50,368 nucleotides of DNA from Escherichia phage GaoY1-9D, in the sequence record PP971806.1. The stretch is one strand, 5' to 3'. This document shows positions 2,300 through 48,162 of this stretch, in pieces. Both the position numbers and the translations under genes were made by a program. Each line of letters starts with the position of its first letter. Within the stretch, counting starts at the first letter, position 1. The notes beneath the pieces were generated by a model, which was not told the origin of the DNA, searched no databases, and saw only the letters and a program-made list of their open reading frames with translations.

Positions 2300-2698
2300 A
2301 TGAAGTTACGTTGCATAAAGATTAATCCATGCGCATCAGAATGGTTTAAGAAAGACTTTCAGGTTGGCAAGGTGTATGAGGCAGAGCGCGGTCGTGATAT
2401 CTACACAGGCACAGTAGATGTTATTGGTGGTAATGAAGGTATTGCTTGGTGCACTATACAGAAAGGAAGCAAATTCAACCTAAGCATCGGAAGTGGACCT
2501 GCTGTCACGTTCGAGCTGGTAAAGGGTCCGCGCCGCCTGGTTGTAACTGAAAAACGTGTAACTGGCGTATTGAACGACAAGCGAAAATTCCGCCGCATGT
2601 GCCGCCAGTACGGTAAGCTTCGATTCACTGAGCCTGGGATGTTCTGCTTTATCGCATGGCGAGCAATGAAAAAGAATGCACGAAATTACCAGCGATAG
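2300..2698 (+). CDS. hypothetical protein
   Basis: ORF with RBS GAAGGGGAA; stop TAG is first triplet of next cassette. Confidence 0.5.
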   Translation: MKLRCIKINPCASEWFKKDFQVGKVYEAERGRDIYTGTVDVIGGNEGIAWCTIQKGSKFNLSIGSGPAVTFELVKGPRRLVVTEKRVTGVLNDKRKFRRMCRQYGKLRFTEPGMFCFIAWRAMKKNARNYQR

Positions 2699-2760
2699 CA
2701 CTTTTTGTTAAAACTCAGAATCGGGGTGGCTGTATAGTTACCCCATCGAAACGAACGAGG
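2696..2760 (+). promoter_or_regulatory. intergenic cassette copy
   Basis: TAGCACTTTTTGTTAAAA 2696-2713; hairpin GGGGT/ACCCC with TGTATAGT; CATCGAAACGAACGAGG. Confidence 0.6.
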
Positions 2761-2768
2761 AAGCAGAA

Positions 2769-2981
2769 ATGAAAATTGAAATTATCGACGTGAATTACAA
2801 GCCGGAAGAAGATGCGATGACTCTTGAGGAGTGCGGATTTAAAGTTGGCGATGTTGTCGAGGTGTCCGGCGAATACAATAATGGCGACTTGTCGATTCAG
2901 GCAATCCGTAAGACTATGTTCGTCAATATCGGCAATGAAGTAAGTATTAGTGAGCATGAATACAAGGTGATCGAAGAATGA
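2769..2981 (+). CDS. hypothetical protein
   Basis: ORF preceded by cassette and RBS. Confidence 0.5.
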   Translation: MKIEIIDVNYKPEEDAMTLEECGFKVGDVVEVSGEYNNGDLSIQAIRKTMFVNIGNEVSISEHEYKVIEE

Positions 2982-3304
2982 TTTACATTCACACTTACGG
3001 AGTCGGCAAGTTCGGTAAAGAGATTCGCCGGACCGTTCACGAAACGAAGGAATCAGCCGAAGCGGCGCAAAAAGTTCTCGGCGGTGAGTTCAAGGCTTAC
3101 CGCGACGCAGAAGACTCAGTTGAATGCTGGCAGATTGAGCACATGCGCAATGTGCTGGAAAGCGAAGTGTCGGAACTTATCGACAACATGACGTGTCACG
3201 GCCCTGGCGGACCATGGGAAGAACCAGGCTCACCGGAATGGGATTGCGCCAAGGTTGACACAATGAACAAGATCAGCGAAATCATTGATGGGGTGTACGA
3301 ATAA
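2978..3304 (+). CDS. hypothetical protein
   Basis: ORF overlapping previous stop (ATGA). Confidence 0.5.
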   Translation: MIYIHTYGVGKFGKEIRRTVHETKESAEAAQKVLGGEFKAYRDAEDSVECWQIEHMRNVLESEVSELIDNMTCHGPGGPWEEPGSPEWDCAKVDTMNKISEIIDGVYE

Positions 3305-3543
3305 TGTTTGGATTAACTGATCCGCAGATGAACGCAGTAAAGGCAAAGGCCAAGCAATTAAACGCAGCGTATGCCACCCTGAGCAAGAAAGATCGCAAAG
3401 ATGATAAGATGGTTGCCTCAATTATTACCAAGCACCATGAGGCCGTAGCGACCATTATATCGCGCGACAAATTTGTGTGGATTGCTGGTTATCTTAAGGG
3501 GCTGGTTGGCAAACGTGAAAACGGAGAAAGTATCTATGAGTAA
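3304..3543 (+). CDS. hypothetical protein
   Basis: ORF, start overlaps previous stop. Confidence 0.5.
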   Translation: MFGLTDPQMNAVKAKAKQLNAAYATLSKKDRKDDKMVASIITKHHEAVATIISRDKFVWIAGYLKGLVGKRENGESIYE

Positions 3544-3730
3544 GATCAAGAATGGTGACGTGATCAAGTGTATCGGCGCGCGCGGTTATGAGTTCTTTAC
3601 TGGCTGCGAGTACACAGTGGAAAAAGTTGATTCCCAGGGATACGTTTACGTCTACAGTGACGAGGGGAACAAGGTCGCGATCGACTACCCTGTTTGCCCG
3701 ACGTATGGAACTTTCAAAAAAGTTGATTGA
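3536..3730 (+). CDS. hypothetical protein (64 aa)
   Basis: internal ATG 3536 with RBS GGAGAAAG; same frame as track ORF 3473..3730. Confidence 0.45.
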   Translation: MSKIKNGDVIKCIGARGYEFFTGCEYTVEKVDSQGYVYVYSDEGNKVAIDYPVCPTYGTFKKVD

Positions 3731-3915
3731 CAGCCATCTCACTGACTGGTATCTTTAATCTCGTAAACAGAAGAGGCCACCAAGTGGTAACGAGCGGTTC
3801 GTAAGCCGCAAATTGAAATAGCGCATCGCCAAAAGCAAAGTGTAAGTCGCAATAAAATCGAGGCATTGTGAAAGCCTGCCGGACTCCGTAACCGGACCTA
3901 ACAATGAGGTTTGAT

Positions 3916-25938: not shown

Positions 25939-26979
25939 ATGACTAAGCCACTGTTTCAATATTTCACTTCAGAAGAAATGAGCAACGATTTCTATCACAG
26001 CAAAGATGAATGGACTGCTGAGTATGTCTCTGGTTCATCGTTGAGCAAGATTCACAGCTCATGCCCTGCGGCGTGGAAGTTTGAAATGAACTCTACGACT
26101 AAAGCTCTTGTTTTCGGCACTCAGTCACACACAAACTTTGAGAGCAAGACGCTGTTTGAACGTCAGTATCGCCGAGCACCGAAAGAAAGCGAGATTAAGA
26201 ACGTAATCACAAGCCAGGCAGCATTGGCAACGAAATTAAAATCATTTGGCCTGACTGGTACAAGCGGAAAGCAATATCCAGAACTGATCAAAATGATGGT
26301 TGATTGTGGCGAAGAACTCAACGTGATGTGGCTGATTGATATGATCGCACAGTGTCAGGCATGGGCCGATGGCGTGGAACTGGTTAAGGCGGAAGACTAC
26401 GATGCTTGCGTAAGTATGCGTCAGGTTCTTGAAATGATTCCTGAGCATAATGCTTGCATGAACAGTGAGACTGCATTCCGTGAGTATTCTTTATTCGGCG
26501 TGATTTGCGGTGTAAAAGTCAAGGTTCGTCTTGACCACGTTGACATCATTAAAGATCCAGAAGCAATACGCCGCATGGGTTACGATCCTGAGGTTCACCC
26601 TGAAATTGTCGTCATCACTGATTACAAAACGACAATGATCGCTAACCCGACAGAGTTCCCGCGCCTGGCTTTCAACCTTGGCTATTATCTCAAGATGGCA
26701 TTGCAGCGTGACCTGTTCGTCAAGTGCTTTGAAGAAACGCGTCCAGTTGTTGTGCGCTTGCTGGCCCAGGAGAAGAAAGAGCCTTACTTGCCTATGGCGT
26801 ACCGGATGAGCAGCGATCAGCTTAAGATTGGTCGCGCTCAGTATATGAGTGTTATTCACACGTTCTCAATGTGCGAGGCGAATGATGTGTGGCCTTCATA
26901 CAGCAACGGCGAACCTGAGATTGAGCTTGAAACTCCTGATTGGATTAAAAAGCAGTTCAAGCACATTCTGGAAGCGTAG
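25939..26979 (+). CDS. exonuclease of PD-(D/E)xK type (recombination exonuclease, putative)
   Basis: LDHVD ... VVITDYKTT motif arrangement; upstream of annealing protein and SSB. Confidence 0.5.
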   Translation: MTKPLFQYFTSEEMSNDFYHSKDEWTAEYVSGSSLSKIHSSCPAAWKFEMNSTTKALVFGTQSHTNFESKTLFERQYRRAPKESEIKNVITSQAALATKLKSFGLTGTSGKQYPELIKMMVDCGEELNVMWLIDMIAQCQAWADGVELVKAEDYDACVSMRQVLEMIPEHNACMNSETAFREYSLFGVICGVKVKVRLDHVDIIKDPEAIRRMGYDPEVHPEIVVITDYKTTMIANPTEFPRLAFNLGYYLKMALQRDLFVKCFEETRPVVVRLLAQEKKEPYLPMAYRMSSDQLKIGRAQYMSVIHTFSMCEANDVWPSYSNGEPEIELETPDWIKKQFKHILEA

Positions 26980-27055: not shown

Positions 27056-27712
27056 ATGCGTACATCAGAGAAGTTTTCGAATGTTTCATCCGCTCTAATT
27101 GCAGCTAAAAAGCAGTTTGCCATCGCAAAAAAATCAGGCTATAACACTCACCTAAAAACTCACTACTCAAACCTGACGGACGTTTTGGAGGCGGTAGAGC
27201 CAGCACTGAAAGAACATGACCTGATGGTTATACAGTCGAATCTTGATACATCAACAGAAAAAGTAATGCACATTGAGACGATAATTCTTCACAGTTCAGG
27301 TGAGTGGCTGGCTTTTCAGTACAATATGCCTATTGAGAAGATTAGCGCCCAGGCATACGGCTCTACTACTTCATACGGTCGCCGTTACGCATTATGTGCA
27401 GCGCTTGGTATCACTCAGAGTGATGATGATGCAGAGATCGCAAAGCGCACAGCGGCAGACTACAAAAAGCTGATCGCCAACTGTGAAAAACTGGAAGACC
27501 TTCAAGTAATCTATAAGAGTGCGAAAGGTTCACTTAGTGCGGCGGAGTGGAAGATTGCAGAGGATCACTTGCAGAAGCGCAAGGCTGAGCTTAGTATCGG
27601 TAGTGCTCGCGGATTCCAGCCAGCCAAAAAGGCTGACGCTCAAAAGGTTGAGGATAAGGTTGCAAGCGCACCTTCTGAACCTGTACAATCTGAATCCATC
27701 GAGCAATTCTAA
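27056..27712 (+). CDS. single-strand annealing protein (Erf-like, putative)
   Basis: 218 aa between exonuclease and SSB. Confidence 0.45.
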   Translation: MRTSEKFSNVSSALIAAKKQFAIAKKSGYNTHLKTHYSNLTDVLEAVEPALKEHDLMVIQSNLDTSTEKVMHIETIILHSSGEWLAFQYNMPIEKISAQAYGSTTSYGRRYALCAALGITQSDDDAEIAKRTAADYKKLIANCEKLEDLQVIYKSAKGSLSAAEWKIAEDHLQKRKAELSIGSARGFQPAKKADAQKVEDKVASAPSEPVQSESIEQF

Positions 27713-28230: not shown

Positions 28231-30381
28231 TGAAACTCTAATGTTAAGGTTGCTTCCGTTATTTCTGTAGAATCCACCAACTGGAACGCCGACAGACGCC
28301 GCGGCGGAATCGCTATCAGCATCCCTGATTATTAACCCCCTATATTCAGAGCCAGCGTCATATGAATATCCATTTATTGTTGCCCCTCCAGATAATGAGT
28401 TAGTCTTAAGTGATAGACTACTATCTGTAACCTTGCTACCTCCGTAAGCGTAAATACCAAATTGCGAGCTGCACTTTCTCATGTCAACACCGTTAGCAAC
28501 AACAAGCCCATCAGGGTTGTTCCCAACTTTTAATCCGGCTAGCTTAGCTCCGTAGGTCGGTTCTGTTGTTGCATTCGGGTTAATTTGCTCATCAGACGCA
28601 ACTATTGCCCCACCCGTGATTGTTAAGTCAATATTTCCATAAGTTCCATCTATGGTTACAGCCCCGCCATCGCTTGACGTATATCCACCTCCAGTGATAA
28701 TGCAGTTATCTATGAAATTGTTAGTACCAGAGCCTTCGCCATCCCCAATGAAAACAACAGCGCATCTTTTAGCAACATCAAGCCACATGTTTGAGAATCT
28801 TGAGTACGACGTCCCGATGCACTGAACATGTATCCTTGTGTACTCTATCTTCCCACCAATAAAGGCAACACCAGAATGCGGACCCAACCTTATACCAACA
28901 CCAACAGTTTCCGACAATGAAGCAGGATCACTTCCTGAGTGGTATCCAATATCATTAATGTACATGCTTGTAATTGTTGAATCGCTTATGTTATTTGATG
29001 AATAGAACCCCGCTTCAACACACCCTGTAATCTGATCTCCGTAAGACCTGTGTAGACCTGCATTATCTGTCCTCAAACCAATCCTTGCGGCTCTAAACGT
29101 GCAGTTATTCCTTAAATGGTTATTGAATGACTCGGAGTTTGAGTTGTCGCTAAATCTCCTTCCGTATTCAATACAACAAACATCAGCACCCCTTGCGTCT
29201 ACGTCAATATTTGATATAGCTGTCTGCCTACAACCCCTAAAATCAAGAATCGGGTCAAGATATCCAAGAGAGTGATCACCAGCGAGCGCTATGGTTCCAT
29301 TCATATTTAAACCGCTATCAGAATAAGCCCACGAGGATAAAGGCCCAACAATTGACTTGCTACTACGCATCAAAATTGGTTTTTTAACGTAGTAATAATC
29401 ACCAATGTAGCACTCATTTACATATGGAGATGAAAGGCACAGGTTTATTGCTACCGAGTTATCAACGCTTGAATTGTGTGGGATTGCACCAAAAAACCTA
29501 ACATCAACAGGTCCTTTAAAAATACCACCAGAAAAACCATCCCTAAAAATCTGCGAAGATTCTCCAACGTTAATTACCAACCCGCCATCAGGTGTCATAT
29601 CTCTTGATTTTTCAACAGAAAAAATACCACCACCGCTATCATTGGTAGAAGAAATATTTTTAATAAAGATATAGTCACCATCATTTACATTACTATCAAG
29701 AACATCTCTTACAAAATTGAATGTCTTGAATTTTTGCTCTGATTTTGAGTAAACATCAAGGTTCTGCCTTGCAAGTTGCTTATCTGTTAAGTCCGATAGT
29801 GCCAAATCTTTTCTCAATAAGTTTTGCGTATCAAGTGATGCGGCATAATCAGCTGCCTCCTGAGCAGATGCTGCGGCAGAATCTTTGTCATTACTTGCCG
29901 AGATTGCGCTTGCGGCTGCGGCATTCTTATCAGATGATACTTGAGCAGCATCTGTGGCAACCTGGCTTCCAATAGTAACAACATCACTATGCTGCGAGTT
30001 AACCTGAGAAACCTTTGTTTCAAAGTCATTTGCATCGAAGTTGTTGAAAGCATCAACAGCATCGGCAACCTCTGTTTCGCGTGACTGATAGTAACGCAAA
30101 GTCTCGGCAACACCCTGAGCCAAACCCTGAACTGTAATCCCATCGTGCGCAAGGATCGCGTAACCTGTACCTGCTGGTGCTGTTTCACCATTTGGATTAT
30201 ATACAGATAAAGACGTATCACTAGCGATCTCAGTGATAGTGTAAATCTGCACCGGATCAGTTTTAAATACGATTGTGGCACCAACTCGAATTAGCGTCAG
30301 CGGCATAGCCCATTGAGTTCCAGCGCCAGTAACTTGACCGTTTTCTGTAAGGCTGGCTGTGCCAGTATCATAAATTGACAT
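28228..30381 (-). CDS. lateral tail fiber / tailspike-like protein
   Basis: about 718 aa; Ala/Ser-rich linker; Gly/Asn-rich repeat-like C-terminal region; start ATG 30381 with RBS AGGAG. Confidence 0.65.
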   Translation of the reverse strand: MSIYDTGTASLTENGQVTGAGTQWAMPLTLIRVGATIVFKTDPVQIYTITEIASDTSLSVYNPNGETAPAGTGYAILAHDGITVQGLAQGVAETLRYYQSRETEVADAVDAFNNFDANDFETKVSQVNSQHSDVVTIGSQVATDAAQVSSDKNAAAASAISASNDKDSAAASAQEAADYAASLDTQNLLRKDLALSDLTDKQLARQNLDVYSKSEQKFKTFNFVRDVLDSNVNDGDYIFIKNISSTNDSGGGIFSVEKSRDMTPDGGLVINVGESSQIFRDGFSGGIFKGPVDVRFFGAIPHNSSVDNSVAINLCLSSPYVNECYIGDYYYVKKPILMRSSKSIVGPLSSWAYSDSGLNMNGTIALAGDHSLGYLDPILDFRGCRQTAISNIDVDARGADVCCIEYGRRFSDNSNSESFNNHLRNNCTFRAARIGLRTDNAGLHRSYGDQITGCVEAGFYSSNNISDSTITSMYINDIGYHSGSDPASLSETVGVGIRLGPHSGVAFIGGKIEYTRIHVQCIGTSYSRFSNMWLDVAKRCAVVFIGDGEGSGTNNFIDNCIITGGGYTSSDGGAVTIDGTYGNIDLTITGGAIVASDEQINPNATTEPTYGAKLAGLKVGNNPDGLVVANGVDMRKCSSQFGIYAYGGSKVTDSSLSLKTNSLSGGATINGYSYDAGSEYRGLIIRDADSDSAAASVGVPVGGFYRNNGSNLNIRVS

Positions 30382-30405: not shown

Positions 30406-30440
30406 TAGCACGAATTGCTAAAGCGCAGTATAGCATTACT
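30406..30440. promoter_or_regulatory. cassette-like dyad copy without downstream gene (orientation ambiguous)
   Basis: TAGCACGAATTGCTAAA 30406-30422 then GCAGTATAGCAT; followed by terminator. Confidence 0.35.
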
Positions 30441-35397: not shown

Positions 35398-36126
35398 ATG
35401 AACGACTCAAATGACAAAGATACCCATGACGCATTCGTTAGCTTTGAACAGATCGAGCGTGAAAACTTTGTTACCAATGCGCTTGTTCCTGGGAACGGTC
35501 ATTACCAGGCGGTCAAGCCTGATACCTTCTATCGGGTAACTGGAAACCGATACGCAGGAAGCAAGACGCCTGACGCTGTGCGTGACCTTTGGGCAACTGA
35601 CAGAGAAGTGATCTCATGGATGGAGTCGCGTTATGGTAAGTACGACATTGACGCCGCCGCCAGCGCTAATAATGCTGTTTGCGAAAAGTTCTACAGCGAA
35701 CAAGTGAACTGCCTCAAAATCTGGTGGGGTAGCAATAAGCACATCTGGCTGAATCCTCCGTACTCACATCCAGATCCTTTCGTGAAGAAAGCGATTGAGC
35801 AAATGGAACACAACAATCAGATTGATATGTTGCTTCCTGGTGATAACTCAACGGCGTGGTTTGCCGAAGCACGACGCAACGCGGCTGAAATCATCTGGAT
35901 TGAGGCGGACATCACAGAGATTGACAGTCAGGAATATTGCCGGACGGGGCGGTTGGCATTCATCTCTGGACTGACCGGAAAGCCTGTCGATGGCAACAAT
36001 AAAGGTAGCGTGATTTTTGTCATGCGAAAACTGCAAGAAGGCGAGACGCAGAAAACGACATACGTTAGCGTTGCCGATATTTGTCCTGGCGTAAGCCGTA
36101 AGAAACCACGTAAACGGAGTGTTTAA
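35398..36126 (+). CDS. dam: DNA N6-adenine methyltransferase
   Basis: catalytic NPPY motif (WLNPPYSHP). Confidence 0.8.
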   Translation: MNDSNDKDTHDAFVSFEQIERENFVTNALVPGNGHYQAVKPDTFYRVTGNRYAGSKTPDAVRDLWATDREVISWMESRYGKYDIDAAASANNAVCEKFYSEQVNCLKIWWGSNKHIWLNPPYSHPDPFVKKAIEQMEHNNQIDMLLPGDNSTAWFAEARRNAAEIIWIEADITEIDSQEYCRTGRLAFISGLTGKPVDGNNKGSVIFVMRKLQEGETQKTTYVSVADICPGVSRKKPRKRSV

Positions 36127-43542: not shown

Positions 43543-43926
43543 TTAAACTCCGTAATCAATTTTTACGAGATGGCCATTATAGTAACCAAAGTTTTTAGGT
43601 AAAGCGTCATACTCAAAGAAATCTTTATCAAGTTTCTGCGGCTCATTTGACGCATATGTGTACAACCTCTCTAGCTCAATCCAGAACAAGCCTTTATGAT
43701 TAACTGGTCTTGCTCTGGTCATAACTACAACTAAGCCAAATTTATTTGAATACTTTATTGGACAAAGGAACTTATTGTCATAACCTTTCCATTGCCCTTC
43801 GGTTATGTTGCTTAACATACCTTGAACAAAATTCTTCCATGTGTTTGCTCTCGGTAGCTTTATGGCGTACTTTTTGGTTAAAATAACTAACCTTGTACCT
43901 CCAGATCTAATTATCTTCATTTCCAC
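43543..43926 (-). CDS. minimal protein-kinase-like protein (putative)
   Basis: ordered motifs RSGGTR, YAIK, YDALPKN, KIDYG in 127 aa. Confidence 0.4.
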   Translation of the reverse strand: MEMKIIRSGGTRLVILTKKYAIKLPRANTWKNFVQGMLSNITEGQWKGYDNKFLCPIKYSNKFGLVVVMTRARPVNHKGLFWIELERLYTYASNEPQKLDKDFFEYDALPKNFGYYNGHLVKIDYGV

Positions 43927-43929
43927 CCC

Positions 43930-44145
43930 TTAGAACGGTATTCCGTCATCAAATTTTAAGCGGTAGTCGAAGTCATCCCCGATCCCATCTACTGACTGGT
44001 TGCTTTCGCTTTCCAGATCCATATCCATAACGCCCAACGCGTCATCGAGTTCGATGCATCCGTAAGCAACCTTGAGCGCCCACTCTTCATTAAGTCCGGC
44101 TTCAAGTGCCGCGCGGTGGCGGCTCCAGAAATTATCTTGATGCAC
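43930..44145 (-). CDS. small acidic protein with SSB C-terminal-like tip (FDDGIPF)
   Basis: 71 aa, Asp/Glu-rich, ends KFDDGIPF; compare SSB end QFDDDIPF at 28201. Confidence 0.5.
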   Translation of the reverse strand: MHQDNFWSRHRAALEAGLNEEWALKVAYGCIELDDALGVMDMDLESESNQSVDGIGDDFDYRLKFDDGIPF

Positions 44146-44147
44146 TG

Positions 44148-44372
44148 TTAGCTCCAGGAATTGATGTAAAGTGAGTTATCGTTTAACAGGTTGACCATCT
44201 CGGCGCGGGTAAGGCTACGGATGATTGAGCCTGGATGAGTGCCAACAACGTAGCGGTCGAACTCACGGCGCGTAATGGTGATTTGGCTAACTCCTGCGGC
44301 GCGGTCAAGTTTGATGATTGCGCGGCCTTTGGCTTCGATATGTGCTACTACGTTCTGAGCTTTAACTGACAT
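44148..44372 (-). CDS. hypothetical protein
   Basis: ORF with cassette upstream. Confidence 0.5.
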   Translation of the reverse strand: MSVKAQNVVAHIEAKGRAIIKLDRAAGVSQITITRREFDRYVVGTHPGSIIRSLTRAEMVNLLNDNSLYINSWS

Positions 44373-44389
44373 TTTTACTTCCTCTTGTA

Positions 44390-44452
44390 TACTTCGTTTC
44401 GATGAAATGATTATGCCTCAATCCGTGAGGCTTAGTTTAGCAATTAGTGCTA
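44390..44452 (-). promoter_or_regulatory. intergenic cassette copy (minus orientation)
   Basis: minus strand TAGCACTAATTGCTAAA; hairpin GCCTCACGGATTGAGGC; CATCGAAACGAAG. Confidence 0.6.
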
Positions 44453-44453
44453 T

Positions 44454-44780
44454 TTATGCGATGTCGAACTCTGCCGCGTACGCTTCTTTGATACCCGATT
44501 CACGCATGGTGCGCTTGCTGATTTTGCGCGGGTGACGGTACTGAGCGTTAGGCTTAATCCACCAGAAGCAAGCAGTTTCACGAACGATTTCATAAGTGCT
44601 GTAACGAGTGAAAGTATCGCGCTCTGCGTCAGGTTGGGATACACAAGTCAGGTTCTTAACTTCCGGCTTGATTTCTTCCCAAACGAATGAATCCATACCG
44701 TTAACCTTGCAAGCTACCATCACATATTCAACGCCATTTTCGATTTTGATGATGTCGTTACCGCGATTTTCGTATTTCAT
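44454..44780 (-). CDS. hypothetical protein
   Basis: ORF with cassette upstream. Confidence 0.5.
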   Translation of the reverse strand: MKYENRGNDIIKIENGVEYVMVACKVNGMDSFVWEEIKPEVKNLTCVSQPDAERDTFTRYSTYEIVRETACFWWIKPNAQYRHPRKISKRTMRESGIKEAYAAEFDIA

Positions 44781-44789
44781 TTGCTTTCT

Positions 44790-44857
44790 CTATGTGTCTC
44801 GTTTCGATTAAGTAATAATACCCCATCGTGAGATCTGGCGTTTAGCAATTCGTGCTA
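44790..44857 (-). promoter_or_regulatory. intergenic cassette copy (minus orientation)
   Basis: minus strand TAGCACGAATTGCTAAA; TATTATTACTTAATCGAAACGAGAC. Confidence 0.6.
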
Positions 44858-44859
44858 TT

Positions 44860-45666
44860 TTATATGTCGCTGAAAACTTCACAGCTTTCACTGCAAGATC
44901 CGGTGTCGAATGATTTGGCCCCTCTAACCCTTGAGGCTATCTCATCTCTCGACTGTGGAAACATCTGTATAATGTCACCGATTGAGCGCCTTCCTCTGTA
45001 CATGTCAGATGATGATTCCTTTTTATTGTGCTCACTAATTGTGTCAATGAATAGCTTTGCAAGTTCCGGCTCATCTTTACACGCAAGCGCAATCTTAAGC
45101 TCTGACTTCTTGATGCAGAAAACGCAGTTACCAAGATGCTCATCAATTTCAAGGTCAAATGGCATGTCATGCCAGAAGTCGATAATGTCCTGTTTTTCGA
45201 AATCAGATATGTCAGCAAGGTAACTGAACCCATCGACGGGTTTTAGTCTCTTTGGCTCATCGGCACGAATACCAATCCATCTCTGATAATTACCCTTACC
45301 ATACTTCTCCTCGCAGTACTTCTCGAATGGCTTAGTCTTCATCCTGTTCGTACAGAATGGCCCGCCTTGGTATGGATTTCCGTACTTCCTTAGCATTCTA
45401 ATCCACCCAGTCAGATCATGGTGAATGTCATCGACGCTGACAACTTCGAAAGATGGAGCCCCGCGGAACTTATCGCTGGGCAAACATCTCAGGCAGGTTA
45501 TCGGCCTTGAAAGCATTGATGAGACTTTACGGATAAACTCATATGTCTTCGGATGCTCTGCTCCAGTGTCCATATAAATCACCTCCGCGTCAGGATGAAT
45601 CTTGAGTACCTCAAGTGTCATGTATGCCGAAGTCCTGCCGCCGCTAAAACTAATTACCTGATTCAT
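44860..45666 (-). CDS. PAPS reductase-family PP-loop ATPase
   Basis: PP-loop SFSGGRTSAYM at N-terminus; ATG 45666 with RBS AGGAG. Confidence 0.7.
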   Translation of the reverse strand: MNQVISFSGGRTSAYMTLEVLKIHPDAEVIYMDTGAEHPKTYEFIRKVSSMLSRPITCLRCLPSDKFRGAPSFEVVSVDDIHHDLTGWIRMLRKYGNPYQGGPFCTNRMKTKPFEKYCEEKYGKGNYQRWIGIRADEPKRLKPVDGFSYLADISDFEKQDIIDFWHDMPFDLEIDEHLGNCVFCIKKSELKIALACKDEPELAKLFIDTISEHNKKESSSDMYRGRRSIGDIIQMFPQSRDEIASRVRGAKSFDTGSCSESCEVFSDI

Positions 45667-45744
45667 TTCAACTCCTATTTGTGCGCTAAATAACAACCAG
45701 ATGATAGCAACTAACCCATGAATGGTCATTAGCAAAAAGTGCTA
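45667..45744 (-). promoter_or_regulatory. cassette-like element upstream of PAPS reductase gene
   Basis: minus strand TAGCACTTTTTGCTAAT at 45728-45744. Confidence 0.45.
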
Positions 45745-46373
45745 TTCGTTCGATTTATGGATTGTTGCAGCTATTGCAATGATTCACATGACTATTGCAC
45801 AGATAGCAATATTGCATCTATTGCAATGATGTTTTCTATTGTTGCGAATTGAGCAATGATTCATTGATGGGGGGAATGATGGGGTGATCAAGGATCACCT
45901 GATCGACTGGTAGGATTTTCCCGCCACACGCTTCTAGCGTATACGCGTTATTTATGTTATGCCATGTAGACACACCAGCACTCCGTAGGAATCATGTACG
46001 CATATCACGCTTAATTACGCCATGGTTACATTAAAATATCCTTATATAATAACCATTTATCTATATTATTATTATTAATATATATATATGTAGATAATGT
46101 AGATAGTGGATATGTGATATTGCGATAGTTTTCTATGATATTTTCCTACACCTGTAGGAATATGACGACATTGTAGGAATAAAAGGGCATGTAGGGGCCC
46201 ATTTGCTAAAAATCCTTATCTACAAACTATACGCAGACTTTACATTGAGCTATATCTGGGGCGATTGGTGGAAATATGTAACTAATCAGAAAATTTGCAC
46301 CGATAACACTTGATAACACGTAGATGTGTGATACTATGGAATCATCTTAGCGAAGACCAACCAATCAGGAGTA
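45745..46373. repeat. AT-rich non-coding region with TATTGCAATGAT repeats, GATC-rich palindrome, GTATAC and GTAGGAAT motifs and (TTA)n/(TA)n tract
   Basis: TATTGCAATGAT at about 45772 and 45819; GGTGATCAAGGATCACCTGATC; TGTAGGAAT three times; core related to 25560..25665. Confidence 0.6.
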
Positions 46374-46901
46374 ATGAGTATGTCAGAGCACAAAGAAGCA
46401 GTAAGCCTCGGTGACGTTATCCGCTACATGGCGGAGCAAGCGCTCAAGTCCGAGAACCGCAGCTACCACGTCCCAATCCATCTAATAGCTCGCCAGGTTT
46501 ACGGCCTCACATCTAGTGATATAGGAGGCATAAGTCGTGAGGATCTGGATGTAGGTGGCAAGTACAGTATGGCAAAGCTGAAGGCGTCATATGTCGCCAA
46601 TACGGTAGCCAGGATGCCAGAGATACAGGCGGCAAACGTTCGTGCAAAACTTTCAATTAAGGATGGTGATTTCGGTGATGACGTCGAGGTTCGGTGTGCT
46701 TATCTGTCTTTGGTTGATGGCGCAATCCAGACAGGAAAGCGAGTGAAGGCAAACTGCCAGATTGCAGAGAAGGCTGTGAGCGACTTTAAGGTCAAAATAC
46801 TCAAGCTGATGCCATCCGTGACTAACTTTGAGGGCGATGAGATTACAGGAGCCATCAAGGCAATCAAAATGTACCAGGAAATGATTAGGGAGACGAAATA
46901 A
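46374..46901 (+). CDS. hypothetical protein
   Basis: ATG 46374 with RBS AGGAG; first gene after AT-rich region. Confidence 0.5.
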   Translation: MSMSEHKEAVSLGDVIRYMAEQALKSENRSYHVPIHLIARQVYGLTSSDIGGISREDLDVGGKYSMAKLKASYVANTVARMPEIQAANVRAKLSIKDGDFGDDVEVRCAYLSLVDGAIQTGKRVKANCQIAEKAVSDFKVKILKLMPSVTNFEGDEITGAIKAIKMYQEMIRETK

Positions 46902-47464
46902 TGTGGATGTTTGATTTTAACGAAGAGAAGCTGACAGATGAGCAGATTATGAAGATTGCTACGGAAGATGGGATTCCACCACTACGAGTTGCAATCAATG
47001 CTAACGGATACCGACAGTCACAAAAGTACTGGTGCGAATTAGAAGTTATGCGTCGCGCAAACCTAAATCGTGAACAATGCGTCGTGGTTGAAAAGATCTG
47101 GAAGCAAGCGATAAATGGAAAAGGCGTTGTGGGAGTTCGCTCAACATATGAGGCGATCAGAAAGGTCCAGCCGTTCGTCGAGCGTAATGGAGTAATGAAT
47201 AACCTGATTGACAATATCCTACCATCACTACAGGACGCGGGAATCATTTGCCTTATTGGTGACAAGATATATGCACACCCATACCTGGTGGGCATGTATG
47301 GGAGAGACATCCACAAGTGGTGCGACTCATGGAGATCGGTTGAGCGCAAATCTCATAGCAAATTGCAGGCAAGCTCAGACATGATTCATGGCTATGATGC
47401 CGATGATGTCAGAAAGGCTGTCGAGTTTTATCGGAAAGCTAAATCACTCCTGAACGGTGAATAG
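46901..47464 (+). CDS. hypothetical protein, truncated paralog of the 40342..41925 P-loop protein
   Basis: shares MFDFNE-KL ... PPLRVAINANGYRQSQ and GKGVVGVRS-YEA-RKV-PF ... CLIGDKIY with the 527-aa protein. Confidence 0.55.
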   Translation: MWMFDFNEEKLTDEQIMKIATEDGIPPLRVAINANGYRQSQKYWCELEVMRRANLNREQCVVVEKIWKQAINGKGVVGVRSTYEAIRKVQPFVERNGVMNNLIDNILPSLQDAGIICLIGDKIYAHPYLVGMYGRDIHKWCDSWRSVERKSHSKLQASSDMIHGYDADDVRKAVEFYRKAKSLLNGE

Positions 47465-47528: not shown

Positions 47529-47738
47529 ATGATTATGGAAACTGTACGTATTGACGATGTTCACTTTGACCAAGCAGAGGTCAGCGTTAGAAAAACAGTT
47601 CGTGGGGCGGTTGTATCTCTAGACTTTGATCCTGACGACTACGCAGACTGTCAAACACTGATGCAATACTCACCTGATGCTGCCCGCAAATTAGCTGCGG
47701 CATTAATCCTTGCGGCAGACGAAGTAGAGGGGAAGTAA
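47529..47738 (+). CDS. small protein, paralog 1 of tandem triplet
   Basis: C-terminal motif DAARKLAAALILAADEVEG shared with next two ORFs. Confidence 0.5.
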   Translation: MIMETVRIDDVHFDQAEVSVRKTVRGAVVSLDFDPDDYADCQTLMQYSPDAARKLAAALILAADEVEGK

Positions 47739-47740
47739 TT

Positions 47741-47947
47741 ATGGAATCTGTAATTATCGAAGATTTCGCAGGTGACAGCACAGAGGTGTCAACATCCGTA
47801 TATTACGACGGCATCGTGAGCATTGACATTGACATTGACACCGAAGACCGTGGCTATAGCTCCACTATGGCTCATTACACACCAGAACAAGCACGCAAGC
47901 TGGCGGCGGCGCTTATCCTGGCGGCGGAAGAGGCAGACAATCAATGA
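47741..47947 (+). CDS. small protein, paralog 2 of tandem triplet
   Basis: C-terminal EQARKLAAALILAAEEAD. Confidence 0.5.
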   Translation: MESVIIEDFAGDSTEVSTSVYYDGIVSIDIDIDTEDRGYSSTMAHYTPEQARKLAAALILAAEEADNQ

Positions 47948-48162
47948 GAGACATTCGAGTTAACTCATCATGGAATCAGGAAACAGAAATCTCAGTAATC
48001 AAGGTTCCGTTCGGAAAGATGCGTAAGCGCGTGCACCTGGACCTTTCGCCGGATTCGCAAGTGGATGGCGCTGGCATGACATACACCGCAGAGCAGGCGC
48101 GCGAACTTGCTGCGGCGCTAATTAAGGCAGCTGAGGAAGTGGAGGCGGAAGTCGATGAGTAA
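47944..48162 (+). CDS. small protein, paralog 3 of tandem triplet
   Basis: C-terminal EQARELAAALIKAAEEVEAE. Confidence 0.5.
   Translation: MRDIRVNSSWNQETEISVIKVPFGKMRKRVHLDLSPDSQVDGAGMTYTAEQARELAAALIKAAEEVEAEVDE

What the first reader, a model, noticed from the sequence alone, without database searches (positions are those of the whole stretch)
44860..45666. PAPS-reductase-family PP-loop enzyme at the edge of the accessory island
The N-terminal SFSGGRTSAYM is the PP-loop ATP-pyrophosphatase signature of the PAPS reductase superfamily. In phages such enzymes are often linked to nucleic-acid modification pathways (sulfur or deazapurine-type chemistry) rather than sulfate assimilation. No partner biosynthetic genes are evident nearby, so the substrate is open. 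Its RBS context (AAATAGGAGTTGAAAT) nearly duplicates that of the lateral tail fiber gene at 30381.
Basis: partly seen in the sequence, partly recalled or inferred. Interest (0 to 1): 0.45.

Follow-up and report, generated by a model that had tools for sequence, protein, structure and literature searches.

The report
Phage NinC, an SspD-like sulfur enzyme
This gene is a T1-like coliphage copy of lambda's long-unexplained NinC protein, a relative of the enzymes that put sulfur into the DNA backbone, and it most likely helps the phage escape bacterial defences that rely on that sulfur mark.

Summary
A 268-aa ORF lies on the minus strand at 44860-45666, with an AGGAG ribosome-binding site and the N-terminal SFSGGRTSAYM PP-loop.

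It is not CysH. It is a full-length homologue of lambda NinC (47% identity, E 1e-75). It is 54.5% identical to the PAPS half of the PAPS-Dam fusion that was transferred with a neighbouring gene to confer escape from Dnd defence in Vibrio phage 44E38.1.

Profile comparison puts it closest to SspD, the ATP pyrophosphatase of Ssp DNA phosphorothioation (98.5% probability over 194 columns). The two share an intact PP-loop, three core cysteines and a C-terminal cysteine pair.

NinC domains are fused to, or sit next to, N6-adenine DNA methyltransferases in many lineages. The window encodes such a Dam at 35398-36126, so a partner does exist.

The gene is a rare cassette, swapped at repeated promoter-like modules. 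That repetition explains the "duplicated RBS".

Best reading: an active sulfur-transfer enzyme that acts on DNA as a counter-defence. The mechanism is inferred, not shown.

This is a new member of a known but biochemically unsolved family. Interest is moderate.

The parts
44860..45666 (-). ninC coding sequence, 268 aa plus stop: NinC-family PP-loop ATP pyrophosphatase of the PAPS-reductase clan, SspD-like
   Evidence: ORF and translation. Lambda NinC: 47% identity over residues 1-266, E 1e-75. PHROG 33262: 1.6e-91. PADLOC SspD: 3.5e-17. hhalign against a bona fide SspD: 98.5% probability.
45625..45651 (-). PP-loop S6-F-S-G-G-R-T-S-A14 (ATP pyrophosphatase signature, intact)
   Evidence: In 115 cluster representatives, S8 and S13 are kept in 115, G10 in 114 and G9 in 108. 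It aligns to SspD GLSGGRDSA. E. coli CysH has the degenerate SSSFGIQAA at this position.
45337..45357 (-). F-C105-T-N-R-M-K110 motif; C105 is the first of three core cysteines
   Evidence: C105 is kept in 114 of 115 representatives and K110 in all 115. The motif aligns to SspD W-C-T-R-Q-L-K.
45106..45135 (-). L-G-N-C181-V-F-C184-I-K-K187: invariant CxxC motif
   Evidence: C181, C184 and K187 are kept in 115 of 115 representatives. The motif aligns to SspD S-G-C-T-F-C.
44881..44901 (-). G-S-C258-S-E-S-C262: cysteine pair on the C-terminal tail
   Evidence: Invariant in alignments A1 and A2. Present in 94-95 of 115 representatives; the rest are mostly unaligned or truncated tails. Residues 253-268 have pLDDT below 50, so the tail is predicted flexible. 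SspD sequences likewise end in ...SCVVCHK and ...ACPMCQL.
45672..45676 (-). Shine-Dalgarno AGGAG, 5 nt upstream of the ATG
45701..45744 (-). Promoter-like intergenic module upstream of ninC: TAGCACTTTTTGCTA (45730-45744) followed by the -10-like TATCAT (45701-45706, TG-extended)
   Evidence: Motif scan: 11 copies against 0.06 expected. Alignment of all copies with their flanks. Sigma-70-like hit ATGACC-17-TATCAT.
44843..44857 (-). Next copy of the module (TAGCACGAATTGCTA on the minus strand), 2 nt after the ninC stop; it begins the downstream cassette
44454..44780 (-). 108-aa ORF of unknown function (PHROG 29431). Together with ninC it forms the segment that is replaced in phage P818
   Evidence: The ORF also occurs in T1-like phages that lack ninC (hits H14-H25), so it is not an obligate partner.
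35398..36126 (+). Stand-alone DNA N6-adenine methyltransferase (Pfam PF05869 Dam): the family's recurrent fusion and neighbour partner, about 9 kb from ninC
   Evidence: Pfam Dam at 5.3e-60. It is 36% identical to the Dam half of the 44E38.1 PAPS-Dam fusion, E 1.6e-26.

Best explanation
The gene encodes a NinC-family protein. It is a catalytically intact PP-loop ATP pyrophosphatase of the PAPS-reductase clan, and its nearest characterised relatives are SspD and, more distantly, DndC and BrxP, the sulfur-inserting enzymes of DNA phosphorothioation.

Shown here:
- Family membership.
- The SspD-like motif set: PP-loop, DTGxE, [F/W]CT..K..P, IRADEP.R, GC.FC and a C-terminal cysteine pair on a flexible tail.
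- Strict conservation of these residues across the family.
- Recurrent fusion or adjacency to N6-adenine DNA methyltransferases.
- A Dam of that type in the same phage.
- Cassette-like, sporadic distribution among T1-like phages.

Taken from the literature: a homologous PAPS-Dam fusion, moved together with one neighbouring gene, lets a Vibrio phage escape the host Dnd system.

Inferred: NinC is a phage counter-defence enzyme aimed at phosphorothioate-based immunity (Dnd, Ssp or BREX type 4). It would use ATP to adenylate its target. It would pass sulfur, taken from host IscS as a persulfide on the C-terminal cysteine pair and handled at the three-cysteine site, onto phage DNA. It would do this either with the phage Dam supplying DNA and site recognition, or by plugging into the host's own PT machinery. 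Phage DNA would then carry the "self" mark.
For: Family and relatives:
- Full-length homology to lambda NinC: 47% identity, E 1e-75.
- The nearest phage, p111, annotates the gene as NinC at 97.8% identity.
- PADLOC scores SspD 3.5e-17, BrxP 2.8e-6 and DndC 3e-3.
- hhalign of the NinC profile against a bona fide SspD (itself PADLOC 5.8e-134) gives 98.5% probability, E 1.9e-15, 194 columns, with all motifs and all three core cysteines in register.
- C-terminal cysteine pairs are present in both families.

Conservation and structure:
- Among 115 representatives that differ by more than 50%, the PP-loop, K110, R134, E137 and K187 are kept at about 100%. C105 is kept in 114 of 115, and C181 and C184 in 115 of 115. 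This argues for a working enzyme.
- The AF2 model has pLDDT 85.7 and a disordered Cys-bearing tail.

Link to Dam:
- Fusions occur as Dam-NinC, NinC-Dam and NinC-D12.
- Of 80 viral loci, 11 are fused, 11 adjacent and 8 have a methyltransferase within 10 kb.
- Methyltransferases also neighbour NinC in Riemerella phage RAP44, Vibrio phage K248 and A. baumannii conjugative plasmids.
- The window's own Dam is PF05869.

Experiment and review:
- 44E38.1 p0018 (PAPS-Dam) plus p0019 gave escape from Dnd. The recipient phage already had a 96%-identical stand-alone Dam.
- Window NinC is 54.5% identical to the PAPS half.
- A 2026 review-type statement says the same.

Accessory status:
- Only p111 and ULIM2 carry a close copy, whereas the Dam is found in 727 phage records, including all close relatives.
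- The gene is replaced by another gene in P818, with breakpoints at module copies.
Against: - No activity, DNA modification or phenotype is known for this gene or for lambda NinC. In lambda it is dispensable.
- The window has no SspA, SspB, SspC, DndD or DndE equivalents. All established PT systems need an NTPase partner.
- In the Vibrio experiment two genes were moved together, so the PAPS domain is implicated "at least in part" only. The second gene, p0019, has no homologue in the window.
- 50 of the 80 NinC loci have no methyltransferase within 10 kb.
- The Fe-S or sulfur-relay role of the cysteines is inferred from motif correspondence. I could not measure distances in the model.
- The match to the SspD HMM covers only the N-terminal half.
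- From my own knowledge, untested here: lambda DNA has never been reported to carry phosphorothioates.
Confidence: 0.5

Rival explanations
1. NinC modifies a base rather than the backbone. Like other PP-loop enzymes (TtuA, MnmA, ThiI, TilS, QueC), it would adenylate a base position in DNA, or in tRNA, and replace it with sulfur or an amine. It might work on the adenine flipped out by the partner Dam, producing a new hypermodified base that blocks restriction in general.
Against: By sequence the protein is clearly closer to SspD than to any base-modifying PP-loop family. The one experimental link is to a PT-based defence. No unusual base has been reported for lambda or T1-like phages (my own knowledge).
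Confidence: 0.2
2. NinC is a decoy or inhibitor. As a homologue of the host SspD/DndC subunit, it would bind the host PT machinery, its sulfur donor IscS, or the restriction module, and disable the defence without modifying phage DNA.
For: It is a single gene homologous to a host defence-system subunit. It needs no partner genes, which fits the 50 of 80 loci that lack a methyltransferase.
Against: The catalytic PP-loop, the charged active-site residues and all three core cysteines are kept in 114-115 of 115 divergent representatives. That is the pattern of an enzyme, not a binding mimic. Repeated fusion to an active-looking methyltransferase is hard to explain for a decoy.
Confidence: 0.12
3. 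It is an auxiliary metabolic gene: a CysH-type PAPS or APS reductase that boosts host sulfate assimilation during infection.
For: The Pfam PAPS_reduct domain matches. PHROG labels the family as an auxiliary metabolic gene. The closest solved folds are PAPS and APS reductases.
Against: The CysH and APS-reductase NCBIfam models score 18-24 bits against cut-offs of 154-254. PDB CysH sequences align only to residues 4-70. The PP-loop is intact, whereas CysH has SSSFG. The C-terminus is GSCSESCEVFSDI, not the ECGLH motif (the motif is from my own knowledge). The partner is a DNA methyltransferase, not cys genes.
Confidence: 0.03
4. It is a recombination or replication accessory factor. Some records call it "NinC recombination protein" because it follows NinB/Orf in lambdoid nin regions.
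For: It is adjacent to NinB in lambda and in P22-like phages. It is labelled that way in Vibrio phage VchM-138.
Against: The label rests on gene position only. In the window it stands apart from the recombination genes (the exonuclease VIII-like ORF at 25939-26979 and the Erf-like ORF at 27056-27712). The fold and motifs are those of an adenylating sulfur enzyme.
Confidence: 0.03

Closest known systems
Bacteriophage lambda NinC (nin region ORF-290, NP_040635)
   Same: The two are homologous over their full length (47% identity, residues 1-266, E 1e-75). All family-invariant motifs are shared: SFSGGRTSA, MDTGxEHPxTY, FCTxRxK, HLGNCxFCIKK and GSCSESCE. Both are dispensable accessory genes on a mobile element.
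   Different: Lambda NinC lies in the nin region directly after NinB. Here the gene heads a leftward string of small genes in a virulent T1-like phage, with its own promoter-like module. Lambda has no phage Dam; this phage does. The function of lambda NinC is still unassigned in the literature I could search.
PAPS-Dam fusion p0018 of Vibrio phage 44E38.1 (QZI91755), the reported anti-Dnd determinant
   Same: The PAPS half is 54.5% identical to the window protein (E 7e-92). The Dam half is 36% identical to the window's Dam (E 1.6e-26). So both halves of the fusion are encoded in this window.
   Different: Here the two domains are separate genes about 9 kb apart on opposite strands. The co-transferred gene p0019 is absent. 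The anti-Dnd phenotype is known only for the Vibrio phage, and only from a two-gene transfer.
SspD (ATP pyrophosphatase of the SspABCD single-strand DNA phosphorothioation system)
   Same: hhalign gives 98.5% probability and E 1.9e-15 over 194 columns. The shared features are an intact PP-loop, DTGxE, [F/W]CT..K..P, IRADEP.R, the GC.FC CxxC motif, similar length (268 against 279 aa), and a cysteine pair at the extreme C-terminus.
   Different: Identity is only about 29%. The SspD HMM covers just the N-terminal half of NinC. The window has no SspA, SspB or SspC neighbours. NinC is carried by phages and plasmids and is paired with Dam instead. The tail pair is CxxxC, against CxxC in SspD.
DndC and BrxP (PT sulfur-insertion enzymes of the Dnd and BREX type 4 systems)
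   Same: They belong to the same PAPS-reductase/PP-loop clan. DndC is described as having a three-cysteine [4Fe-4S] centre plus a cysteine dyad, an arrangement that NinC's five conserved cysteines resemble.
   Different: The sequence matches are weak: DndC 3e-3 and BrxP 2.8e-6, N-terminal only. DndC and BrxP are much larger (about 470-780 aa). They work with DndD/E or BrxC, which are absent here.
Assimilatory PAPS/APS reductase CysH (PDB 1sur, 2goy)
   Different: Identity is only 18-19%. The curated CysH models fail by more than 130 bits. The PP-loop is intact here and degenerate in CysH. The roughly 100 C-terminal residues of NinC have no counterpart. The genomic partners are different.

Membership tests
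NinC family (lambda NinC; PHROG 33262 / 424) | Full-length sequence homology to lambda NinC | tested here: met
   47.1% identity over residues 1-266, E 1e-75. PHROG 33262 at 1.6e-91 and PHROG 424 at 2.6e-59.
NinC family (lambda NinC; PHROG 33262 / 424) | Family-invariant motifs: SxSGGRTS PP-loop, MDTGxEHPxTY, FCTxRxK, GNCxFCxKK and the C-terminal GSCSESCE | tested here: met
   All are present in the window protein and invariant in A1 and A2. They are conserved in 94-115 of 115 divergent representatives.
NinC family (lambda NinC; PHROG 33262 / 424) | Carried as a dispensable accessory gene by phages and other mobile elements | tested here: met
   It is absent from the close relative P818, with breakpoints at module copies. 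Close copies occur in only 2 other phage records. Homologues occur in prophages, phage-plasmids and conjugative plasmids.
Assimilatory PAPS/APS reductase (CysH) | Reaches the curated score of the CysH / APS-reductase models | tested here: not met
   NF002537 scores 24.1 bits against 154. TIGR00434 scores 19.2 against 165. TIGR02055 scores 20 against 235. TIGR02057 scores 17.7 against 254.
Assimilatory PAPS/APS reductase (CysH) | C-terminal catalytic ECGLH-type cysteine motif (motif known from the CysH literature, my own knowledge) | tested here: not met
   The C-terminus reads ...DTGSCSESCEVFSDI.
Assimilatory PAPS/APS reductase (CysH) | Linked to sulfate-assimilation genes | tested here: not met
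   The neighbours are small phage ORFs of unknown function. Across the family the recurrent partner is a DNA methyltransferase.
SspD of SspABCD phosphorothioation systems | Homology to SspD, including the PP-loop and the CxxC motif | tested here: met
   PADLOC SspD at 3.5e-17, N-terminal half only. hhalign against a bona fide SspD gives 98.5% probability over 194 columns with the motifs in register.
SspD of SspABCD phosphorothioation systems | Encoded together with SspB (nickase) and SspC (ATPase), with or without SspA | tested here: not met
   The PADLOC scan of the ten largest unassigned ORFs found no Ssp or Dnd proteins. None is annotated in the relative p111.
SspD of SspABCD phosphorothioation systems | ATP pyrophosphatase activity and PT formation in DNA | not testable with these tools
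   Needs biochemistry and LC-MS of PT dinucleotides.
DndC of DndABCDE systems | Significant match to the DndC models and a DndD/DndE neighbourhood | tested here: not met
   The DndC models match only at E 3e-3 to 7e-3. There is no DndD or DndE.
Phage anti-Dnd PAPS-Dam fusion (Vibrio phage 44E38.1 p0018) | Homologous PAPS-reductase domain | tested here: met
   54.5% identity over 279 columns, E 7e-92.
Phage anti-Dnd PAPS-Dam fusion (Vibrio phage 44E38.1 p0018) | PAPS domain covalently fused to a Dam methyltransferase | tested here: not met
   The window protein ends 6 residues after the cysteine pair. The Dam is a separate gene at 35398-36126.
Phage anti-Dnd PAPS-Dam fusion (Vibrio phage 44E38.1 p0018) | Confers escape from a host Dnd system | not testable with these tools
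   This is known only for the Vibrio phage, by transfer of p0018 plus p0019.

The most novel reading that the evidence does not exclude
NinC and a Dam-type N6-adenine methyltransferase together form a minimal, mobile-element-borne DNA sulfur-modification system. The methyltransferase would supply sequence recognition and DNA distortion in place of SspB/SspC or DndD/E. NinC, fed by host IscS, would install a phosphorothioate, or a new sulfur-containing adenine derivative, at or next to Dam sites. That would be a fifth and much simpler route to PT-type DNA marks, used for offence rather than defence, and it would finally assign a function to lambda NinC.
Probability: 0.2. Interest if true: 0.75.

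Novelty: new member of a known kind. Interest (0 to 1): 0.38.

Why it matters
NinC has been an unassigned lambda gene since the genome was sequenced, and in the literature I could search it is still listed only by its domain name. PAPS-reductase-like genes are also among the commonest "auxiliary metabolic genes" counted in viromes as sulfate-assimilation cysH. If most of them are NinC- or SspD-like DNA-directed counter-defence enzymes, those ecological readings are wrong.

The analysis here gives three things:
- A precise motif-level link between NinC and SspD.
- A quantified link between NinC and Dam methyltransferases.
- A natural test pair. This phage carries ninC, and its relative P818 carries another gene at the same module-bounded site. 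Both are coliphages with a Dam, so the anti-phosphorothioate-defence hypothesis can be tested directly in E. coli.

For phage therapy and engineering, a small portable anti-Dnd or anti-Ssp cassette would be useful.

Tried and rejected
- **CysH orthology:** rejected on the curated cut-offs, the state of the PP-loop and the C-terminal motif.
- **PDB sequence searches:** with the single sequence and with the profile, only residues 4-70 aligned to CysH or APS reductase. No solved close relative exists.
- **Foldseek against PDB and BFVD:** weak matches only (TM 0.4-0.5), apart from one unnamed viral homologue. They add nothing beyond the family assignment.
- **AFDB50 fold search:** the library was not available.
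- **Geometry of the cysteine site:** I could not read model coordinates, so the proposed three-cysteine site rests on motif alignment alone.
- **Second Vibrio gene (p0019, and p0020):** no homologue in the window.
- **Ssp/Dnd partner proteins in the window:** none found.
- **Pfam DUF3440 hit:** the neighbouring 126-aa ORF 43543-43926 gave a hit (20.4 bits against a cut-off of 25). DUF3440 is a domain I recall accompanying some bacterial PAPS-reductase proteins. A PDB sequence search gave nothing, so I treat it as unconfirmed.
- **108-aa ORF as obligate partner:** rejected. It occurs in many T1-like phages without ninC.
- **Rfam scan of 44000-47000:** no RNA family.
- **Published Nat Microbiol version of the Vibrio study:** not held. 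I relied on the preprint and on a 2026 paper that cites the published version.
- **Literature searches for NinC function:** nothing beyond "nonessential".
Full report
**1. The observation**

The finding's coordinates are exact, but the gene is on the minus strand. The ATG is at 45666-45664 and the stop TAA at 44862-44860, giving 268 aa that begin MNQVISFSGGRTSAYM. The ORF listing extends the frame to a TTG at 45735 (291 aa). The ATG is the better start: AGGAG (45676-45672) lies 5 nt upstream of it, homologues start at the same residue, and the nearest phage annotates the same 807-bp CDS. Pfam PAPS_reduct passes its cut-off (35.2 against 22.5 bits), although only on residues 4-57.

**2. Which phage, and what kind of locus**

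The window is a T1-like siphovirus genome of the Drexlerviridae. The closest record is vB_EcoM-p111 (Nouzillyvirus), 95% identical across this region, where the gene is already labelled "NinC protein".

ninC is the first gene of a leftward string of small ORFs. That string starts at a 707-bp divergent intergenic region (45667-46373).

It is an accessory cassette. In the close relative P818, homology with the window stops at 44458 and resumes at 45704. A different 142-aa gene occupies the gap. p111 carries that gene as well as the 108-aa ORF and ninC.

The breakpoints coincide with copies of a 15-bp palindromic motif, TAGCA-N5-TGCTA. The motif occurs 11 times in the window against 0.06 expected. 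It is part of a longer conserved module with this order: stop codon, TAGCAC(G/T)AATTGCTAAA, a short hairpin, a -10-like hexamer, "atcgaaacgaa", then the RBS.

The two genes share a generic module, not a specific relationship.

By tblastn, close copies of this NinC (above 90% identity) exist in only two other phage records, p111 and ULIM2.

**3. What the protein is**

It is a full-length homologue of lambda NinC: 47% identity over residues 1-266, E 1e-75. It belongs to a large family. There are more than 4,100 clusters at 90% identity with E of 1e-5 or better, and 1,509 representatives at 50% identity with E of 1e-3 or better. Members are found in lambdoid prophages, P22-like, chi-like, Vibrio and Riemerella phages, phage-plasmids and conjugative plasmids.

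It is not CysH:
- The curated CysH, APS-reductase and PAPS-reductase models score 18-24 bits against cut-offs of 154-254.
- PDB CysH sequences align only to residues 4-70.
- In that stretch NinC has a complete PP-loop (SFSGGRTSA), where E. coli CysH has SSSFGIQAA.

**4. The closest characterised relative is SspD**

PADLOC's best hit is SspD (3.5e-17), ahead of BrxP (2.8e-6) and DndC (3e-3). A tblastn search of plasmids turned up a bona fide SspD on a Sinorhizobium plasmid, which scores 5.8e-134 across the whole PADLOC SspD model.

hhalign of the NinC profile against that SspD gives 98.5% probability, E 1.9e-15 and 194 aligned columns, pairing NinC residues 2-234 with SspD residues 5-226. The motifs fall in register:

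| NinC | SspD |
|---|---|
| SFSGGRTSA | GLSGGRDSA |
| MDTGAEHPKTY | TDTGKELPEVY |
| FC105TNRMKTKP | WCTRQLKLRP |
| IGIRADEPKR | VAIRADEPSR |
| GNC181VFC184 | SGCTFC |

Beyond the aligned region, both SspD sequences I examined end in a cysteine pair (...SCVVCHK and ...ACPMCQL). NinC ends ...GSC258SESC262EVFSDI, on its disordered tail.

Across 115 family representatives that differ from one another by more than 50%, conservation is as follows:
- S8, S13, K110, R134, E137, K187, C181 and C184 are kept in all 115.
- C105 and G10 are kept in 114.
- The tail cysteines are kept in 94-95. The remainder are mostly truncated or unaligned tails.

This pattern is what a working enzyme shows, not a binding mimic. 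The arrangement resembles the published description of DndC: a three-cysteine [4Fe-4S] centre plus a sulfur-accepting cysteine dyad. That resemblance is an inference. I could not measure distances in the model.

**5. The recurrent partner is a DNA adenine methyltransferase**

Among the multi-domain representatives, the only recurring extra domain is an N6-adenine DNA methyltransferase. PF05869 Dam occurs N-terminal to NinC (P0121, P0124) and C-terminal to it (P0126, P0131, P0142, 44E38.1 p0018). The unrelated D12 class PF02086 occurs in P0137. The two PHROG profiles that match NinC are 495 and 460 positions long, and NinC covers positions 1-273 and 161-417 respectively. Those lengths fit the two fusion orders.

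In 80 NinC loci from IMG/VR, my ORF and HMM scan found 11 fusions, 11 immediately adjacent methyltransferases (both orders), 8 more within 10 kb, and 50 with none. Many loci are related, so I dereplicated them. At 90% NinC identity there are 29 clusters: 4 with fusions, 3 with adjacency and 4 with a nearby methyltransferase. The link is recurrent, and its varied forms suggest it arose more than once. It is not universal.

Annotated examples:
- Riemerella phage RAP44 has a methyltransferase directly upstream.
- Vibrio phage K248 has one 1.5 kb upstream.
- A. baumannii conjugative plasmids have an N-6 DNA methylase 1.2 kb downstream.

The window itself encodes a PF05869 Dam at 35398-36126 (5.3e-60). 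That Dam type is found in 727 phage records, including all the close relatives that lack ninC. NinC is therefore an add-on to a lineage that already carries a Dam.

**6. The experimental link**

Piel et al. (bioRxiv 10.1101/2021.05.05.442762) compared Vibrio crassostreae podoviruses. The phages that overcome a host Dnd system differ from sensitive ones by two genes: p0018, a 479-aa PAPS(N)-Dam(C) fusion, and p0019. Transferring both genes into a sensitive phage gave full infectivity on the Dnd-bearing host. The sensitive phage already had a stand-alone Dam that is 96% identical to the fused one. The authors call this an anti-Dnd system "related at least in part" to the PAPS domain.

The window NinC is 54.5% identical to the PAPS half (E 7e-92). 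The window Dam is 36% identical to the Dam half (E 1.6e-26). p0019 has no homologue in the window.

[quoted passage not shown] It notes that phage PAPS reductases are predicted DndC/SspD homologues in anti-defence hotspots. Another paper lists anti-Dnd among the systems whose mechanism is unknown. Lambda ninC itself is recorded only as nonessential.

**7. Most likely mechanism, and what is inferred**

Shown here: the family, the motif set, the conservation, the Dam link and the cassette nature.

From the literature: the anti-Dnd phenotype of a homologous fusion transferred as part of a two-gene set.

Inferred: NinC adenylates its target with ATP and transfers sulfur onto phage DNA. The sulfur would arrive as a persulfide on the flexible C-terminal cysteine pair, presumably from host IscS, and be handled at the C105/C181/C184 site. 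The phage genome would then carry the mark that PT-dependent restriction (DndFGH, SspE, SspFGH) reads as self. Site recognition could come from the phage Dam or from the host's own DndD/E or SspB/C.

The second option would explain why NinC is silent and dispensable in defence-free laboratory hosts. I put about 0.5 on [quoted passage not shown], and less (about 0.3) on actual PT installation.

Points against:
- There is no NTPase partner, although all four known PT systems need one.
- 50 of 80 loci lack a nearby methyltransferase.
- The Vibrio experiment moved two genes.
- To my knowledge no PT has ever been reported in lambda DNA.

Rivals:
- Modification of a base in DNA or tRNA (0.2).
- A non-catalytic decoy (0.12), disfavoured by the conservation of the catalytic residues.
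- A sulfate-assimilation auxiliary gene (0.03).
- A recombination accessory (0.03).

**8. Comparison, novelty and verdict**

The protein is a member of the NinC family; every feature tested was met. It works like, but is not a member of, SspD or DndC: it is homologous to them, but the defining gene neighbourhood is absent. It is a split version of the Vibrio PAPS-Dam anti-Dnd protein.

The gene kind is known and already annotated, so this is a new member of a known kind. Its value lies in an open question rather than in surprise. NinC's chemistry is unsolved. The SspD-type motif correspondence and the quantified Dam coupling make the question directly testable in E. coli with natural ninC+ and ninC- sister phages. 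Interest: 0.38.

Noticed in passing
window 2067, 26977, 30406, 35042, 36356, 43142, 44438, 44843, 45730, 47462, 49018 (15 bp each): The palindromic motif TAGCA-N5-TGCTA, mostly TAGCACGAATTGCTA, occurs 11 times against 0.06 expected. At 10 of the 11 sites it starts within a few bases of the upstream gene's stop codon; at 45730 it lies about 64 nt upstream of the ninC start. It is followed by a short GC hairpin, a -10-like hexamer about 20-23 nt downstream, a conserved 'atcgaaacgaa', and the next gene's RBS. The spacing is too long for a plain sigma-70 -35/-10 pair, so it may be the site of a phage-encoded regulator combined with a terminator and promoter. The copy at 30406 is inverted relative to its gene.
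   Followed up: partly
window 44438-45744, compared with L089 (phage P818) and L001 (phage p111): Gene cassettes are swapped exactly at copies of the intergenic module. P818 has a 142-aa gene where the window has the 108-aa ORF plus ninC, and p111 has all three. The roughly 80-bp module regions are about 75% identical to each other, which would allow recombination between them.
   Followed up: partly
window 45667-46373: The 707-bp divergent intergenic region contains four copies of a roughly 26-nt iteron-like repeat built on TTGCAAT/ATTGCA (45761-45863; spacing 30, 17, 30). It also has a tandem ATGTAGATA pair and a 60-bp AT-rich palindromic tract (46043-46105). GC falls to 0.36 here. It could be a replication origin or a densely regulated early promoter region. 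No Rfam family matches.
   Followed up: partly
window 43543-43926 (minus strand, 127 aa from the GTG start; the 126 codons 43543-43923 were searched): This ORF lies in the same leftward gene string. It gives a sub-threshold Pfam DUF3440 hit (E 4.5e-4, 20.4 bits against a cut-off of 25). DUF3440 is a domain I recall accompanying some bacterial PAPS-reductase proteins. By eye the sequence also carries kinase-like motifs (YAIKLPR; DALPKN; KIDYG). PHROG 4301 has no assigned function, and the PDB sequence search gave nothing. It may be coincidence.
   Followed up: partly
window 47529-48162 (plus strand): Three tandem small ORFs (69, 68 and 72 aa) are evident paralogues. They share a C-terminal ...YxPxxARKLAAALILAAEE... 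segment.
   Followed up: no
L090 (A. baumannii conjugative plasmid p2008S11-069-2) 4983-7773: A NinC homologue (31% identity) sits on MOBF/MPF_F conjugative plasmids of Acinetobacter; 141 plasmid records are from Acinetobacter. It lies two genes upstream of an N-6 DNA methylase and next to parAB. So the NinC-methyltransferase pairing extends beyond phages.
   Followed up: partly
L007 (Salmonella phage FSL SP-124, chi-like) 2462-3834: In chi-like phages NinC overlaps the start of a nucleoside 2-deoxyribosyltransferase gene. This is another gene of nucleotide or DNA-modification flavour beside NinC.
   Followed up: no
proteins P0018, P0023, P0040, P0043; L006 (Vibrio phage K198) 2501-3541; alignment A3: Some NinC homologues carry a conserved C-terminal extension of about 100 aa with no Pfam match. 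Others, such as K198 at 346 aa, have an insertion of about 70-100 aa after the position of residue 145. One representative is fused to a metallo-beta-lactamase domain.
   Followed up: no
PDB entry 21fy chain C, 'PptA': The NinC profile weakly matches (E 0.17, residues 6-62) a recently solved 270-aa protein called PptA. I could not find out what it is. It may be another PP-loop enzyme worth comparing.
   Followed up: no
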